Part shown: positions 14,865 to 40,023 of the stretch, piece by piece
Numbering within the stretch: position 1 is the first letter of the stretch
How the letters are laid out: each line of letters starts with the position of its first letter
Assembly (NCBI GenBank): GCA_000754455.1
Contig: JNSE01000021.1
Coordinates: 1 to 49,738 of the forward strand
Reading direction: 5' to 3'
DNA from: an actinobacterium acAMD-2
Lineage (GTDB): Bacteria; Actinomycetota; Actinomycetes; UBA12327
DNA: 49,738 nucleotides
The notes under the pieces: generated by a model
What the model saw: only the letters and a program-made list of their open reading frames with translations
Told to the model about the DNA's origin: nothing
Database searches by the model: none
Position numbers and translations under genes: made by a program

Positions 14865-17015
14865 CTAGTGAAGGGTTCCAGCCCATTGACGTGTGCGGTG
14901 TCCGCGCAACCGAACTGATTCCCAACGGGCTCCGGCGATGAGCAAACCCACACCCACCACTGCCAACGACACCCACTGTGGAAGCAGGGCAGCTACGTCG
15001 GCAATTTGCGCAACAGAGATGACGATGACGGCCGCCACACCCGGCCAAAACACTCCGGCCCAATGGTTGCGCCCGCCCACGATGGCTAGGACTAAACCGA
15101 GGATGAGAAAACTGACGATTCGGATAACGGCTTCTGTTGATGGCGCTTCACCAGCACCGGAACTTCGCGTTAAGGAATCCTCCAACACCCACGCGACGGG
15201 AAACAGTAGAGCCGCAGTGATCGCCGGTGCCACACTGCTCCACGTGGAAACCACATGGTCATGAGTGAGCAAGACAACCGATAGACCGACCAACAACAAC
15301 GGCACCGCGATGAAGAGTCCATGCAACTCCGGGCCCAGACCCCACTGATCGATGTTGAGCCACTTCCACGCCAGGTGACCGCCTTCGGCAGCAAGAGCAC
15401 CGGCAAACCACAAAGTCCACACTGCGGAACGCATCCACGCTAATGCAGCGAGCAAACCAAACCCGGCCACGAGAAGCGCTGTAACAGCGGCTGGCTCAGC
15501 AACAGTGATGTCGGCTGGAAAGCGATTGACGTCGTTAAGCAATTGCTGGGACCACAGCAAGATCATGGCGAACGCGGTGAAGGCGGGAAGGCTTGTGGGC
15601 TTGCCGGGGCGTAGGCGAACGAGTACGAGGTGCAACACCACACACACGGCCACCGCTGTCAGCGCCACACCCAATCCAGTCCACCAGGGGTACTCGTCTC
15701 CAATCCACGCCGTGACGTCAGATCGCGGCAGATCGCTGAAGATCTCCTCATTGGTCACTGGTTGCGCGGTGGAAGCAAGGAATGGCAAAACCAGCGCACC
15801 CGCCCCAGCAATTGCGGCGAGGCGAATCAATGAACCGCTAACAAATCGAACGAGTGGCTCTTTACCTAGTTCCTCCTGACTCCATTGAGCGCGCGTCATC
15901 AGATGCGCGCCGGCAGACACCAAAACCACTGTCAAAAGGAACGCGGCAGGAATCAACACAAGGCGGTTGGCGGGATCATGGGCAGCAGCGAAAGTTCCGA
16001 TCGAAGAGACCACTAAGAGCACGGCCGCACCTGTTGGATAGGACCACCAGCGCGCACGCAAAGCGCGGTCTGTCACCAAGTAGGCCAAGGAACCAGCAAG
16101 AGCGATCGTCACAGCCACCAGGGCAATGAATCCACCGTCCGTGCCCGCATCATCAAGCTTGCCAGCAGTCGTCACCGCAATGACGCAAATGCCGATGAAC
16201 CCAGAGACGACCGCAAACCACTGCCACGGGACTCGATGCCAAGCGCGCTGTTGATCACTTAGAGCAAGACCGGTCATCGCAGCAGCGCCGGCGATGCAGA
16301 CTCCGCCAACCCACCAACCCACCCAGTCCGGCGCTTGTTCAGCGTCGAGGATTGGTGCGGAGGCAAATGCCATCAAGGCCATGTGCGAAAAGACCACTGC
16401 AGTCAAAATCGCGGCAGCTGGTTGGCGTTGTGCTTGGCGATAACTCCACAACAAGCCAAGAAGGGCTGCTGCCACAACCGACAATGCCCGTGGCCATGGC
16501 GAGAGCGCATCAGAAGAAATCCAAAAACTTGATGTGACAACCAGCAACAGCACGCCCGTGACTGACAGCGCACTTGCTGTCCCAGGAATTCGACGAGCCA
16601 AGCGATAACCGCCCGCAAGCGCGCCAACACCAGCAACAACAAGCACGAGAAGTTGGCCTATCGCACCCAGAACATCCCAAGCAAAGGCCGTAAAGGCAAT
16701 CGCAGCCGCCACTAAAGCAAAAACACCCGTTCCCAAGATAAATCCGGCAGCCGTGATTCCAGGGCGGGCTGGTCGCGGTTCAGCAATTTCCGGGCGAGCT
16801 TCGTCGGCCGCCACTACCGCGTCGTCAGCACCGTGTTCAAGTACCCATGAACGCTTGGTATCGATCCACTGCTCAAGATCAGTCAGATATTTCAATTCCG
16901 CTTGGGCAGCCGAGGACAGTTGCAGGCCACACGAAGGACATCGCAGGTCCCCGTTGTGTCCTGCGCTGGTCAATCCGTTGGAACAGCGTGGGCAGTGCAC
17001 CAAAGTTGTAGTCAC
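14865..17015 (-). CDS. Large polytopic membrane protein with N-terminal zinc ribbon (DUF2157 / SCO7613 C-terminal-like)
   Basis: CPRC...CPSC at the N-terminus; LVAAAIAFTAFAW DUF2157-like segment; many hydrophobic helices; C-terminal LPQWVSLAVVGVGLLIAGARWE. Confidence 0.65.
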   Translation of the reverse strand: MTTTLVHCPRCSNGLTSAGHNGDLRCPSCGLQLSSAAQAELKYLTDLEQWIDTKRSWVLEHGADDAVVAADEARPEIAEPRPARPGITAAGFILGTGVFALVAAAIAFTAFAWDVLGAIGQLLVLVVAGVGALAGGYRLARRIPGTASALSVTGVLLLVVTSSFWISSDALSPWPRALSVVAAALLGLLWSYRQAQRQPAAAILTAVVFSHMALMAFASAPILDAEQAPDWVGWWVGGVCIAGAAAMTGLALSDQQRAWHRVPWQWFAVVSGFIGICVIAVTTAGKLDDAGTDGGFIALVAVTIALAGSLAYLVTDRALRARWWSYPTGAAVLLVVSSIGTFAAAHDPANRLVLIPAAFLLTVVLVSAGAHLMTRAQWSQEELGKEPLVRFVSGSLIRLAAIAGAGALVLPFLASTAQPVTNEEIFSDLPRSDVTAWIGDEYPWWTGLGVALTAVAVCVVLHLVLVRLRPGKPTSLPAFTAFAMILLWSQQLLNDVNRFPADITVAEPAAVTALLVAGFGLLAALAWMRSAVWTLWFAGALAAEGGHLAWKWLNIDQWGLGPELHGLFIAVPLLLVGLSVVLLTHDHVVSTWSSVAPAITAALLFPVAWVLEDSLTRSSGAGEAPSTEAVIRIVSFLILGLVLAIVGGRNHWAGVFWPGVAAVIVISVAQIADVAALLPQWVSLAVVGVGLLIAGARWESVRLRGHRTRQWAGTLH

Positions 17016-37460: not shown

Positions 37461-38375
37461 ATGGCAACAAACCACAGCGGACGCACCCGTCAACGCAATG
37501 GCATCGCCATCGGCGAGGGCGCCATCCGTAAGATCTTTCCGGCCTTTGTGTTGTTGATGTGGATCACCGCGGGGATTTGGATTGCCAACGGTCAGTGGAC
37601 CACTCTGAACACCATCTTGGCGCTTGAGGCCCTAGCCATTTGCTCCGTGGTCTTTGTCAACTTTGTGCATGTGTTTAATTTCGGGTACGCGGCATGTGTC
37701 GTTGTTTTGAACACGACCATCTTGGTCGCCAAGGGCGCACCGTTGGGCTCCATCATCGTGGGTGGACTCCTCATGATTTATGGAATTCGCTTATTTACCT
37801 TTGTTGCTAACCGCTACCGCCACGCGTCTTATGCTCAACGCCGGGCCGGCACGGTCATCGCGCATAAGCAACTTCCATTGCCGATTAAGATTCTTCTCCT
37901 CATCAACACCGCGACCCTCATGACCTTCCACGCCATGACGACCTACAACGTGGCAACGAAGGCGGCCGATGAGGGCAACAGCGGCCTGAATGGCTGGCTC
38001 ATCATCGGAGGTCTCGTCCTTGCCCAAGGCATCGCCATCGAGGCTCGTGCGGACTACGAGAAGCAGCAAGTCAAGCGAAACAATGGTGACAAGTGGATCA
38101 GCTCAGGCTTGTTTGCTCGTACCCGTCACCCCAACTACCTGGGCGAAATCATGATGCAGGTCGGCGTCATCTTGTGTGGAATCGGTGCTGCCAGCAATTG
38201 GTACGGCTACGCGGCAGGATTCTTAGCCCCGACCTACATCATTATCTTGATGTTGTCGGCGACAACAGGTGGCGAAAAGTCCAAGCGTGACAAGTACAGC
38301 GAGGACCCCGAATTCCGTGCTTACTTGCGTCGTTCCAATGCGTTGTTGCCAAAGTTTCGCAAAGTCAACGTTTAA
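37461..38375 (+). CDS. DUF1295 / steroid 5-alpha-reductase-like membrane protein
   Basis: Multiple TMs; EARADYEK, GLFARTRHPNYLGE, Y..Y.RRSN.LLP; GGAG RBS before ATG 37461. Confidence 0.85.
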   Translation: MATNHSGRTRQRNGIAIGEGAIRKIFPAFVLLMWITAGIWIANGQWTTLNTILALEALAICSVVFVNFVHVFNFGYAACVVVLNTTILVAKGAPLGSIIVGGLLMIYGIRLFTFVANRYRHASYAQRRAGTVIAHKQLPLPIKILLLINTATLMTFHAMTTYNVATKAADEGNSGLNGWLIIGGLVLAQGIAIEARADYEKQQVKRNNGDKWISSGLFARTRHPNYLGEIMMQVGVILCGIGAASNWYGYAAGFLAPTYIIILMLSATTGGEKSKRDKYSEDPEFRAYLRRSNALLPKFRKVNV

Positions 38376-38410
38376 CTCGCACCCCGCTTCACACCATGTC
38401 TTTGACTTGC

Positions 38411-38627
38411 TAGCCTTTCGCGCATGTCATCGACGTCACAGCCTTCCGTGCACCTAGTGGTTAGGCGCCACGTTGACCTCATGCGGATTTGTTCCAGCTC
38501 GTGTTGTTGCTGTAACTAATCCGCCGTCCAAGAAAACCCTGGGCGCTGCGGCGCTTGATGGATGTTTTCTTGACCTCCTCTGTCTTTCTTGCGTCGTTGC
38601 GTCTTCCTAACTGGAGGAAACTAAGCA
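38411..38627 (+). promoter_or_regulatory. Putative cysteine-responsive attenuator leader
   Basis: Hairpin 38483-38524 over the Cys codons; hairpin 38529-38537/38564-38572; alternative partner 38585-38591; CCTCC 38574-38578 complementary to SD GGAGG 38613-38617. Confidence 0.65.
38424..38519 (+). CDS. Leaderless cysteine-rich leader peptide MSSTSQPSVHLVVRRHVDLMRICSSSCCCCN (31 aa)
   Basis: TAGCCT (38411-38416) + 7 nt + ATG; RRHVDL..R motif of actinobacterial leader peptides; TGT-TGT-TGC-TGT run just before the stop; 108 nt upstream of the next gene. Confidence 0.85.
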   Translation: MSSTSQPSVHLVVRRHVDLMRICSSSCCCCN

Positions 38628-39116
38628 ATGAGCGTTACTGACGAATACTTGAAGAACAACGAGGCCTACGCCGCGAATTTCTCAGGACCCCTTCCCCTGC
38701 CTCCATCACGCAACATCGCCGTCGTTGCCTGCATGGACGCTCGATTGGATGTCTACGGGATTTTGGGGCTTGGCCAAGGCGAATCCCACGTGATTCGCAA
38801 TGCTGGTGGAGTCGTCACCGATGACGAGATCCGCTCGCTGGCCATCAGCCAACGTCTGCTCGGCACCAAGGAAATCATCCTCATCCACCACACGGACTGC
38901 GGAATGTTGACCTTCACCGACGACGAGTTCAAGGCCGGTATCCAAGCCGAGACAGGCATCAAGCCCGAGTGGGCTGCCGAGGCCTTCCCCGATCTGGACG
39001 ACGACGTGCGCCAGTCCATCAAGCGCATCAAGAACAGCCCCTTCATTCCGCACACCGATGCGGTTCGAGGATTCGTTTTCGATGTGGCCACTGGCAAGCT
39101 CAACGAAGTCAAGTAA
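38628..39116 (+). CDS. Beta-class carbonic anhydrase, Rv1284/clade-D-like (possible COS hydrolase)
   Basis: ACMDARLD (Cys-x-Asp-x-Arg), HVIRNAGG, HHTDCGM (His-x-x-Cys), RGFVFDVATGKL; 162 aa. Confidence 0.93.
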   Translation: MSVTDEYLKNNEAYAANFSGPLPLPPSRNIAVVACMDARLDVYGILGLGQGESHVIRNAGGVVTDDEIRSLAISQRLLGTKEIILIHHTDCGMLTFTDDEFKAGIQAETGIKPEWAAEAFPDLDDDVRQSIKRIKNSPFIPHTDAVRGFVFDVATGKLNEVK

Positions 39117-39124
39117 GTCAGGCA

Positions 39125-39164
39125 GATGCGGGAATGCAATCCGAACCGGATGCATTCCCGCATC
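39125..39164 (+). terminator. Long hairpin after the carbonic anhydrase (likely terminator without U-tract)
   Basis: GATGCGGGAATGCA-A-TCCG-AAC-CGGA-TGCATTCCCGCATC: 14+4 bp stem. Confidence 0.75.
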
Positions 39165-39240
39165 ATTGCCGTGAGGCGAAAACTGGTCTCATCACGGCGT
39201 GGGTGAAATCGAGTTCACCGGCTCCCACTAAGTTTGTTGT

Positions 39241-40023
39241 GTGCAAGTACTCACCACGCTGACGTCCTTTAGCGACGACCAAGGCAACGTCATCGAATAC
39301 GACGGCATGGTCGAAGGCGAAATCAAGATCAAATTCAAAGGCAACAACAACCGCCTCACCATCCATCCTGGGGCAAAGATTCAGCGTCTCTTTGTTGACT
39401 TTGACTGCGACAACGGCGTATTGACCATTGATGAAAACTTGGGCGGCCCACCCTTTCGAGCCAACATCCGCGTTGGGCAGGACTCAACGGTGACAGTAGG
39501 CAAGAACGTCTCCGCCACCTCTGCAGTAGCCATCTCCGCTACCGAAGGCACCACGGTTGCCATCGGTGACGATGTGATGTTTGCCAGCGAAAATGAAGTG
39601 CGGGCCGACGATGGCCACCCCATCTTTGACGTACGCACGGAAAAACGTGTCAACGTCTCAAGGTCAATAACCATCGGCAATCACGTATGGGTGGCTCGCG
39701 AAGCGGTCTTGCTCGGAGGAGCAACCATCGGCGAGGGTTCGGTTATCGGTTACCGCAGTCTGGTCACCGGAAAAATCCCGAACAACTGCATTGCCGTGGG
39801 TATCCCAGCCAAGGTCGTACGAAAGAGCATCGCGTGGGAGCGCCCCCACCTTTCGCTGATCAAGCCTTATTACAAACCCGACAGTCGAAGCATCAAGAAG
39901 AGCCCGTACTGGAACGTGACCGAGGGTGACATTCAGGTAGGACCTAGGCTGACACCCAAGGCCATCCTCAAGCGCGCGCGACGGGTAGCCGGCAAGGTCA
40001 AGCGAAGGCTGCAGCGCAGGTAG
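39241..40023 (+). CDS. Hexapeptide-repeat O-acyltransferase
   Basis: IGDDVMFA, DGHPIF, ITIGNHVWV, GATIGEGSVIG, NCIAVGIPAKVV. Confidence 0.88.
   Translation: MQVLTTLTSFSDDQGNVIEYDGMVEGEIKIKFKGNNNRLTIHPGAKIQRLFVDFDCDNGVLTIDENLGGPPFRANIRVGQDSTVTVGKNVSATSAVAISATEGTTVAIGDDVMFASENEVRADDGHPIFDVRTEKRVNVSRSITIGNHVWVAREAVLLGGATIGEGSVIGYRSLVTGKIPNNCIAVGIPAKVVRKSIAWERPHLSLIKPYYKPDSRSIKKSPYWNVTEGDIQVGPRLTPKAILKRARRVAGKVKRRLQRR

What the first reader, a model, noticed from the sequence alone, without database searches (positions are those of the whole stretch)
38483..38627. Mutually exclusive RNA pairings linking the Cys codons to the Shine-Dalgarno site
Seen: hairpin A GCGGATT.GTT.CAGC / GCTG.AAC.AATCCGC (38483-38524) spans the Cys codons and stop. 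CAAGAAAAC (38529-38537) can pair with GTTTTCTTG (38564-38572), or its first 7 nt with TTTCTTG (38585-38591). CCTCC (38574-38578) and TTCCT (38604-38608) are both complementary to the SD region GGAGGAA (38613-38619). Inference: ribosome stalling on the Cys codons switches the fold and exposes the SD, giving translational attenuation rather than a U-tract terminator.
Basis: partly seen in the sequence, partly recalled or inferred. Interest (0 to 1): 0.6.

Follow-up and report, generated by a model that had tools for sequence, protein, structure and literature searches.

The report
Cysteine-sensing leader before a carbonic anhydrase

Summary
Hairpin A (z -5.0) and the CAAGAAAAC/GTTTTCTTG helix B (z -3.7) fold better than all 200 shuffles. 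They lie in a ~205-nt leader at 38424-38627. It holds a probably leaderless 31-codon sORF ending CSSSCCCCN, then a spacer, ahead of an Rv1284-like beta-carbonic anhydrase. This is a new instance of the polycysteine sORF attenuators described in mycobacteria. It occurs only in the window's genus (6 genomes), not before 183 orthologous genes elsewhere.

The proposed switch is only partly supported. At equilibrium, the cost of opening the ribosome-binding site stays at 13-16 kcal/mol wherever the leader ribosome sits.

Other exclusive pairings do exist. Opening A frees 38521-30 to pair with an invariant core (helix E'). That blocks helix B. The core can also pair with 38591-603 (helix D), which competes with the hairpin covering the SD and AUG.

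My best reading (0.35) is a co-transcriptional, kinetically trapped choice between B+C (closed) and D (looser). Premature termination at B is the main rival. The same genus has a second Cys/Met leader with a canonical terminator.

The parts
38408..38416 (+). Promoter -10-like element TGcTAGCCT (extended -10; hexamer 38411-16), 7 nt before the sORF ATG
   Evidence: TANNNT is kept with the same 7-nt spacing in all six genomes while its inner bases vary (TAGCCT, TAACCT, TAATCT). There are no TSS data, and the sigma-70 scan found nothing.
38424..38519 (+). Leader sORF, 31 codons, MSSTSQPSVHLVVRRHVDLMRICSSSCCCCN*. Cys codons at 38490-92 and 38502-13; stop TAA 38517-19.
   Evidence: It is conserved in six genomes of the genus. 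G003 has an in-frame 9-nt deletion, a synonymous TGT to TGC change occurs, and the stop is kept as TAA or TAG.
38424..38482 (+). 5' domain P1. It pairs the sORF start region with 38468-81.
   Evidence: -15.1 kcal/mol, but z is only -0.6. The 3' strand CACGTTGACCTCAT is invariant in all six genomes.
38483..38524 (+). Hairpin A (5' arm 38483-98, loop 38499-508, 3' arm 38509-24), spanning the Cys codons and the stop
   Evidence: -17.4 kcal/mol, z -5.0. 38467-38524 is 91% identical between G000 and G003, although 4-fold sites differ by 47%. One pair changes U-A to U-G; one pair is broken in 3 of 5 distinct sequences.
38521..38551 (+). Helix E' (38521-30 with 38540-51). It can form only when hairpin A is open and 38521-30 is not covered by a ribosome. 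It excludes helices B and D.
   Evidence: It is the MFE of the nascent RNA (-13.2) until about 38564 if 38521 onward is free, and it collapses to -7.1 if 38521-23 is masked. The same holds in G003, where the loop-closing pair is G-C instead of A-U. On its own z is -1.8.
38526..38574 (+). Helix B: outer A-tract/U-tract stem (38529-37 with 38564-72) around the invariant core hairpin GGGCGC-UGCG-GCGCUU (38541-56)
   Evidence: -20.4 kcal/mol, z -3.7. The core 38541-63 matches at 22 of 23 positions in G003. The outer stem is replaced by other complementary bases in G003, but no better than shuffled arms (p 0.25).
38542..38603 (+). Helix D: 38542-54 with 38591-603 (12 of 13 pairs). It excludes the core hairpin and helix B, the lower stem of C, and two pairs of the SD hairpin.
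   Evidence: It is the RNAalifold consensus of the six genomes. It is within 3.5 kcal/mol of the B state in all six. It is the best fold sharing no pair with the MFE, z -2.8, 3 of 300 shuffles as good.
38574..38591 (+).
   Evidence: Present in the sequence. Mostly unpaired in the MFE. Not conserved in G003, and CCTCC is changed in G005.
38581..38644 (+). Module C: anti-SD UCUUCC 38602-07 pairs with GGAGGA 38613-18 (-6.7). The lower stem 38590-600 pairs with 38625-34 and covers the AUG at 38628.
   Evidence: -20.4 kcal/mol, z -3.1. Opening cost of 38608-40 is 13.1 kcal/mol. The anti-SD is kept in all six genomes. The lower stem is lost in G001 through a 3-nt deletion.
38628..39116 (+). Regulated gene: 162-aa beta-class carbonic anhydrase of the Rv1284 type
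   Evidence: Pfam PF00484, E 4.5e-13. PDB 1ylk (Rv1284), E 1.2e-75. Carbonyl sulfide hydrolase 3vqj, E 4.5e-40 over residues 3-110.
39121..39170 (+). Long, near-perfect hairpin just after the gene's stop codon, with no U-tract. It probably marks the 3' end of the unit. Coordinates are approximate.
   Evidence: Fold of 39100-39245.

Best explanation
Region 38483-38627 is the sensing and output half of a ~205-nt leader-peptide attenuator for the carbonic anhydrase gene.

Shown by computation: a probably leaderless 31-codon sORF ends in four Cys codons that sit inside hairpin A. The gene's SD and AUG are locked in hairpin C.

Inferred mechanism:
1. With no ribosome on the leader, A forms. With a ribosome at the stop codon, 38521-30 is covered. 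Either way helix E' cannot form.
2. The core hairpin then zips into helix B as soon as 38574 is transcribed. This locks segment 38542-54.
3. Segment 38591-603 therefore pairs with the AUG region. Hairpin C is complete and the gene is poorly translated.
4. When Cys-tRNA is scarce, the ribosome waits on the Cys codons. A is open and 38521-30 is exposed.
5. E' forms first and delays B.
6. When 38591-603 emerges it captures the core as helix D. D is the most stable fold of transcripts ending between about 38604 and 38625.
7. D removes the 5' strand of C. This lowers the cost of opening the ribosome-binding site by 2-4 kcal/mol. D is separated from B+C by a barrier of 14 kcal/mol or more.

The decision would thus be kinetic and fixed for the life of the mRNA. 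The general class (a cysteine-sensing leader peptide) is about 0.8 likely. This particular relay is about 0.35 likely.
For: - sORF with a conserved frame, start, -10 spacing and CCCCN end in six genomes.
- Precedent in mycobacteria.
- A, B, C and the whole leader fold better than shuffles.
- 38467-524 and the core 38541-63 are 91-96% identical between G000 and G003, against 47% divergence at 4-fold sites. That fits segments which must serve several partners.
- E' is the nascent MFE only when the end of A's 3' arm is free, in G000 and in G003.
- The B and D states are within 3.5 kcal/mol in all six genomes.
- D is the alifold consensus and an unusually stable pair-disjoint fold.
- D is the MFE of transcripts that end before the AUG.
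- Estimated barriers: E' to D is no higher than E' to B in the five close genomes; B to D is 13-25 and D to B is 14-25 kcal/mol.
- The D state lowers the RBS opening cost from about 13 to 9-11 kcal/mol.
- A second Cys/Met leader sORF lies before a sulfhydrylase gene in the same genus.
Against: - At equilibrium no ribosome position changes RBS accessibility by more than about 2 kcal/mol, and the sign differs between genomes.
- The small SD hairpin persists in the D state.
- G001 lacks C's lower stem.
- In G003 the barrier order is reversed and D is already the global MFE.
- No base pair covaries. Five of the six genomes are close kin.
- The compensation in B's outer stem is not significant.
- Barriers are findpath upper bounds. 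The ribosome footprint edges are assumed.
- There are no expression, TSS or probing data.
- The gene is not an annotated cysteine gene.
Confidence: 0.35

Rival explanations
1. Classical transcription attenuation. A is the 1:2 hairpin, E' the 2:3 antiterminator, and the core hairpin extended to GGAU the 3:4 terminator. The terminator is followed by GUUUUCUU and preceded by a matching A-tract. Stalling on the Cys codons gives E' and read-through. A ribosome at the stop codon, or no translation, gives the terminator.
For: - The three-way topology and its register with the Cys codons and the stop fit the trp-type scheme.
- E' outlasts the passage of the polymerase: the barrier to B is about 9.5 kcal/mol.
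- Six of the eight bases after the stem are U in five genomes.
- The same genus uses a canonical terminator behind a second Cys/Met leader.
- The paper on mycobacteria leaves open whether other polycysteine leaders act on transcription.
Against: - The terminator scan finds nothing here.
- The stem has an internal loop and the U-tract is interrupted.
- G003 keeps A, E' and the core but has no U-tract.
- It does not explain why the SD and AUG are kept sequestered in the read-through mRNA.
Confidence: 0.2
2. At equilibrium, a ribosome on the Cys codons makes CAAGAAA re-pair with 38585-91 instead of 38564-72. This shifts which of CCTCC or TTCCT covers the SD and so exposes it.
For: All the complementarities exist. 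G001 carries a U-to-C change that weakens the 38564-72 partner but not the 38585-91 partner.
Against: - The second pairing occurs in no MFE, constrained or alternative fold.
- It has no counterpart in G003, where CCTCC is also absent.
- Both anti-SD options leave the SD paired.
- Masking the Cys codons changes nothing.
Confidence: 0.07
3. The leader acts through a trans factor rather than an RNA switch. One option is Rho loading on the C-rich RNA after the stop codon and on the pyrimidine tract 38573-611, blocked by a stalled ribosome. Another is RNase III cutting the ~20-bp helix B.
For: - 38573-611 is 77% pyrimidine and G-poor.
- Equilibrium folds give no cis switch.
- The invariant core could be a protein site.
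Against: - Most of the leader is base-paired, which is poor for Rho.
- A ribosome on the Cys codons covers only up to about 38525.
- Nothing here tests either factor.
Confidence: 0.1
4. No cysteine sensing. Either the sORF encodes a working Cys/His-rich micropeptide or is not translated, and the hairpins merely stabilise the mRNA or set a constitutive low translation level.
For: - No covariation and no expression data.
- The regulated gene is not a known cysteine gene.
- Orthologs in 183 other loci do without the leader.
Against: - Four consecutive Cys codons one codon before the stop are the hallmark of a sensor.
- The frame is kept across an indel.
- Synonymous positions of the sORF's 3' half are conserved at the RNA level.
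- A second Cys-rich leader with a terminator lies before a sulfur amino-acid gene.
Confidence: 0.12

Closest known systems
Polycysteine leaderless sORF attenuators of mycobacteria (Ms5788A/Rv0815A and five further loci; Canestrari et al. 2020, bioRxiv 10.1101/834739)
   Same: An unannotated ~30-codon sORF that begins right after a -10 element and has a run of Cys codons at its C-terminal end. A ~100-nt structured spacer follows, and the downstream SD is sequestered. The instance is locus-specific and phylogenetically narrow.
   Different: In Ms5788A the Cys tract itself pairs with the SD region. Here the Cys tract sits in its own hairpin and the SD pairs with a local anti-SD, so any link needs intermediate helices. 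The host is a ~1.5-Mb freshwater actinobacterium, not a mycobacterium. The target is a beta-carbonic anhydrase, which is not mentioned in the text of that paper (its Table 1 is an image I could not read).
Leader-peptide transcription attenuators (trp, his, ilv type; ilvB1 of M. tuberculosis, PMC13236596)
   Same: Tandem regulatory codons; the stop codon lies inside the second segment; three successive mutually exclusive hairpins (A, E', core/B).
   Different: The third hairpin is at best a weak terminator and loses its U-tract in one genome. The downstream RBS is itself sequestered.
ermC / cat-type translational attenuation
   Same: A leader ORF, a stalled ribosome as the proposed signal, and an SD closed in a hairpin.
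   Different: The signal is amino-acid supply, not a drug. The stalled ribosome is 80-100 nt from the anti-SD. No equilibrium displacement of the anti-SD is predicted.

Membership tests
Polycysteine leaderless sORF cysteine-responsive attenuators (mycobacterial type) | Short ORF with at least two consecutive Cys codons, upstream of and co-oriented with the regulated gene | tested here: met
   31 codons, CCCC one codon before the stop, 108 nt before the gene's ATG; conserved in six genomes.
Polycysteine leaderless sORF cysteine-responsive attenuators (mycobacterial type) | Leaderless: transcription starts at the A/G of the start codon | tested here: inconclusive
   TANNNT sits 7 nt upstream with conserved spacing, and there is no SD before the ATG. 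No TSS data; the promoter scan is negative.
Polycysteine leaderless sORF cysteine-responsive attenuators (mycobacterial type) | The Cys tract base-pairs with the SD region of the downstream gene (shown for Ms5788A only) | tested here: not met
   The Cys codons pair within hairpin A, and the SD pairs with 38602-07. A leader-wide duplex scores -24 against about -58 kcal/mol for the local modules.
Polycysteine leaderless sORF cysteine-responsive attenuators (mycobacterial type) | The downstream genes act in cysteine or sulfur metabolism | tested here: inconclusive
   The gene is an Rv1284-type beta-CA. Relatives in this enzyme family hydrolyse carbonyl sulfide to H2S (PMC12035519, PMC10880591), but no activity is known for this protein.
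Polycysteine leaderless sORF cysteine-responsive attenuators (mycobacterial type) | Expression rises when cysteine is limiting and depends on in-frame Cys codons | not testable with these tools
   Needs reporters or proteomics.
Leader-peptide transcription attenuators | Alternative hairpins 1:2, 2:3 and 3:4 in register with the regulatory and stop codons | tested here: met
   A, E' and the core hairpin overlap pairwise. E' needs A open and 38521-30 uncovered.
Leader-peptide transcription attenuators | The 3:4 hairpin is an intrinsic terminator with a U-tract | tested here: inconclusive
   GUUUUCUU follows the extended stem in five genomes. The scan finds no terminator, and G003 has no U-tract.
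erm/cat-type translational attenuation | A ribosome stalled in the leader frees a segment that displaces the anti-SD | tested here: not met
   At equilibrium the RBS opening cost is flat for all ribosome positions. A kinetic route through E' and D is possible but unproven.
Curated RNA families (riboswitches, T-box, known leaders; Rfam 15) | Match to a covariance model | tested here: not met
   Only two chance-level hits with E above 2 in 37800-39300.

The most novel reading that the evidence does not exclude
A cysteine sensor built as a five-helix relay (A, E', B, D, C). The stalled ribosome never touches the RBS hairpin. It biases a co-transcriptional folding race whose outcome is then frozen for the life of the mRNA. 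The sensor would gate a clade-D beta-carbonic anhydrase that works as a carbonyl sulfide hydrolase. Together with a second, paralogous-looking Cys/Met leader before a sulfhydrylase gene, it would make a ribosome-run sulfur regulon in genome-streamlined freshwater actinobacteria.
Probability: 0.2. Interest if true: 0.65.

Novelty: new member of a known kind. Interest (0 to 1): 0.4.

Why it matters
Polycysteine leader ORFs are so far documented only in mycobacteria. This would be an independent case in a streamlined freshwater actinobacterium. It has different RNA wiring and a second Cys/Met leader in the same genus, which suggests that ribosome-based cysteine sensing is broader among Actinobacteria.

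It also ties an Rv1284-type carbonic anhydrase to cysteine supply. That is circumstantial support for a role of such enzymes in sulfur scavenging from carbonyl sulfide.

The leader is a compact test case for kinetically decided RNA switches.

Tried and rejected
- **Rfam** scan of 37800-39300: nothing.
- **Direct pairing of the Cys tract or sORF with the SD/AUG**, as in Ms5788A. An 8-bp UGUUGCU:AGCAAUG match and a leader-wide discontinuous duplex exist. They are far weaker than the local hairpins.
- **Hungry-codon +1 frameshift** carrying ribosomes to a stop 20 nt before the gene's ATG. That frame is open in five genomes but closes at -61 in G003. Rejected.
- **Homologous leaders before orthologous genes**: none in 24 loci of other genera, 80 metagenome loci or 79 species genomes. 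Two loci (L015, L187) had a CCC in some frame; I did not follow them up. The negative count includes the unpublished genomes G013, G020, G035, G037 and G048. No positive claim rests on them.
- **Covariance model of A plus the core**: strong hits only in the six genus genomes among 151 genomes of the class. The weak hits lie in coding DNA.
- **Survey for other CCCC sORFs** in G001, G003 and G004: hits are no more frequent than for the reversed pattern, and the ones examined look like out-of-frame reads of coding sequence.
- **Compensatory change in B's outer stem** in G003: not better than shuffled arms.
- **First attempt at pair-forbidding constraints** failed technically and was redone.

Full report
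**What is there.** The window comes from a 60%-complete, 57% G+C actinobacterial genome of about 1.5 Mb. Near-identical proteins come from freshwater metagenomes.

They belong to a larger unit:
- An ORF of 31 codons at 38424-38519 reads MSSTSQPSVHLVVRRHVDLMRICSSSCCCCN.
- A 108-nt spacer follows.
- Then comes a 162-aa beta-class carbonic anhydrase at 38628-39116 (Pfam PF00484). Its closest solved relative is Rv1284 of M. tuberculosis (E 1.2e-75). Carbonyl sulfide and CS2 hydrolases are more distant relatives.
- TGcTAGCCT ends 7 nt before the sORF ATG, and no SD precedes that ATG.
- No Rfam family matches. The simple scans report no promoter or terminator.

**Conservation.**
- The sORF and leader are present before this gene in all six genomes of the genus (G000-G005).
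- They are absent before the orthologous gene in 24 loci of other genera, 80 metagenome loci and 79 species genomes.
- A covariance model of the central part finds only the six genus genomes among 151 genomes of the class.
- The -10 hexamer varies inside (TAGCCT, TAACCT, TAATCT) but keeps TANNNT and its spacing.
- G003 has a 9-nt in-frame deletion in the sORF. One Cys codon changes synonymously. The stop changes from TAA to TAG.
- G000 and G003 differ at 47% of 4-fold sites in the enzyme gene. Yet 38467-38524 is 91% identical and the non-coding core 38541-38563 is 96% identical. The arms of helix B, the linker and 38591-607 are near neutral.
- Pairs in hairpin A, the core hairpin and E' never vary, so covariation is silent.

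**Structures**.
- The minimum-energy fold is a row of modules: P1 (38424-82; -15.1, z -0.6), hairpin A (38483-524; -17.4, z -5.0), helix B with an inner GC hairpin (38526-74; -20.4, z -3.7) and module C (38581-644; -20.4, z -3.1).
- In C, UCUUCC 38602-07 covers GGAGGA 38613-18, and 38590-600 covers the AUG region.
- The whole leader has z -3.2.
- CCTCC is changed in G005 and missing in G003.
- The anti-SD next to the SD is kept and even improved (CCCUCC) in G003.

**Test of the proposed switch.** I masked a ribosome footprint at every codon of the sORF and recomputed the ensemble.
- P(unpaired) of the SD stays near 0.2.
- The cost of opening the 30S site stays at 13-16 kcal/mol in four genomes. 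Changes are 2 kcal/mol or less, and the sign is inconsistent.
- This negative is weak evidence against a kinetic switch. The same treatment of a second leader in this genome, which carries an unmistakable terminator, also never removes that terminator at equilibrium.

**Other exclusive pairings.**
- E': 38521-30, the end of A's 3' arm plus the linker, is complementary to 38540-51.
  - This helix (-13.2) is the MFE of the nascent RNA until about 38564, provided 38521 onward is free.
  - That holds when a ribosome waits on the Cys codons. It does not hold when A is closed or a ribosome sits on the stop.
  - G003 behaves the same way, with its closing pair changed from A-U to G-C.
  - E' excludes the core hairpin and B.
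- D: 38542-54 is complementary to 38591-603 (12 of 13 pairs).
  - D excludes B and the lower stem of C.
  - It is the RNAalifold consensus.
  - It lies within 3.5 kcal/mol of the B state in all six genomes.
  - It is the MFE of transcripts that end before the AUG.
  - It is the best fold sharing no pair with the MFE, at z -2.8.
- D lowers the RBS opening cost by 2-4 kcal/mol but does not dissolve the small SD hairpin.
- Estimated refolding barriers:
  - about 8-14 kcal/mol from E' to D in the four closest relatives, and 3-13 in G001;
  - usually a little more from E' to B;
  - 13-25 from B to D;
  - 14-25 from D back to B.
  - G003 does not keep this order, and there D is already the global MFE.

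**Most likely mechanism.** I read the region as a cysteine-sensing leader-peptide attenuator whose sensor is the A/E'/B competition.
- The output I favour (0.35) is a co-transcriptional race. Without a stall, B locks the core and C closes the RBS.
- With a stall, E' holds the core open long enough for 38591-603 to capture it as D. C is then left incomplete, in a trapped state.

Steps shown: the sequences, the energies, the conservation and the exclusivities. Steps inferred: leaderless start, ribosome edges, folding order and the effect on translation.

The chief rival (0.2) uses the same sensor but makes B a weak intrinsic terminator. In five genomes the stem ends ...GGAU and is followed by GUUUUCUU, opposite an A-tract. 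G003 has no U-tract, the scan is negative, and this rival leaves the conserved RBS sequestration unexplained. Trans-factor models and a non-regulatory reading keep about 0.1 each.

**Comparison with known systems.** The closest system is the polycysteine leaderless sORF attenuators of mycobacteria. There a stalled ribosome prevents the Cys tract from pairing with the downstream SD (also cited in PMC13236596).
- This locus shares the sORF design, the dimensions and the sequestered SD.
- It fails the one structural feature shown for Ms5788A, direct pairing of the Cys tract with the SD.
- The authors state that mechanisms at the other loci are undetermined, so I file this as a new member of that kind with different wiring.

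**Context that strengthens the class assignment.** The same genome has a second probable leaderless sORF, VPKPLILISRRTVDFGRMSSCMCCPSGMDQWCRRA.
- It follows TGCTACTTT-N6-GTG and is followed by a canonical terminator.
- A gene follows whose N-terminus looks like an O-acetylhomoserine sulfhydrylase; I did not run a family search on it.
- It is conserved in four other genomes of the genus and has no Rfam match.
- It shares an RRxVDxxR...SSC pattern with the leader studied here.
- Enzymes of the wider beta-CA family hydrolyse carbonyl sulfide and support sulfur assimilation in a fungus (PMC12035519; PMC10880591). A sulfur-scavenging role for the gated enzyme is therefore plausible but untested.

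**Limits.**
- Five of the six genomes are close kin.
- The negative counts of other-genus loci include the unpublished genomes G013, G020, G035, G037 and G048. No positive claim rests on them.

Noticed in passing
G000 contig C12, about 15093-15310, minus strand (locus L229:394-611, minus): A second probable leaderless sORF (GTG start 6 nt after TGCTACTTT) encodes VPKPLILISRRTVDFGRMSSCMCCPSGMDQWCRRA. It is followed by a canonical intrinsic terminator (GGCCGGAAG-ATTG-CTTCCGGCC-TTTTG) and a 431-aa gene whose N-terminus looks like an O-acetylhomoserine sulfhydrylase (no family search was run). It is conserved in G001, G002, G004 and G005, not found in G003 with this DNA query, and has no Rfam match. 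It looks like a classical Cys/Met transcription attenuator.
   Followed up: partly
window 38466-38513 compared with L229 (the second leader): The two leader peptides share RRxVDxxR(I/M).SS..C.CC and the DNA words CGTTGA and TGTTGC. This suggests either common origin or a nascent-peptide motif that aids stalling.
   Followed up: no
window 39121-39170: A near-perfect hairpin of about 18 bp lies directly after the carbonic anhydrase stop codon, with no U-tract. If it ends the transcript, terminators in this organism need not have U-tracts.
   Followed up: no
window 38473-38610: The +1 frame relative to the sORF is open from the Cys codons to a TAA 20 nt before the gene's ATG in five genomes, but it closes early in G003.
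   Followed up: yes
window 39241-40023: A 260-aa hexapeptide-repeat transferase gene lies 125 nt downstream on the same strand. It was not examined for a link to serine acetyltransferase or to the leader.
   Followed up: no
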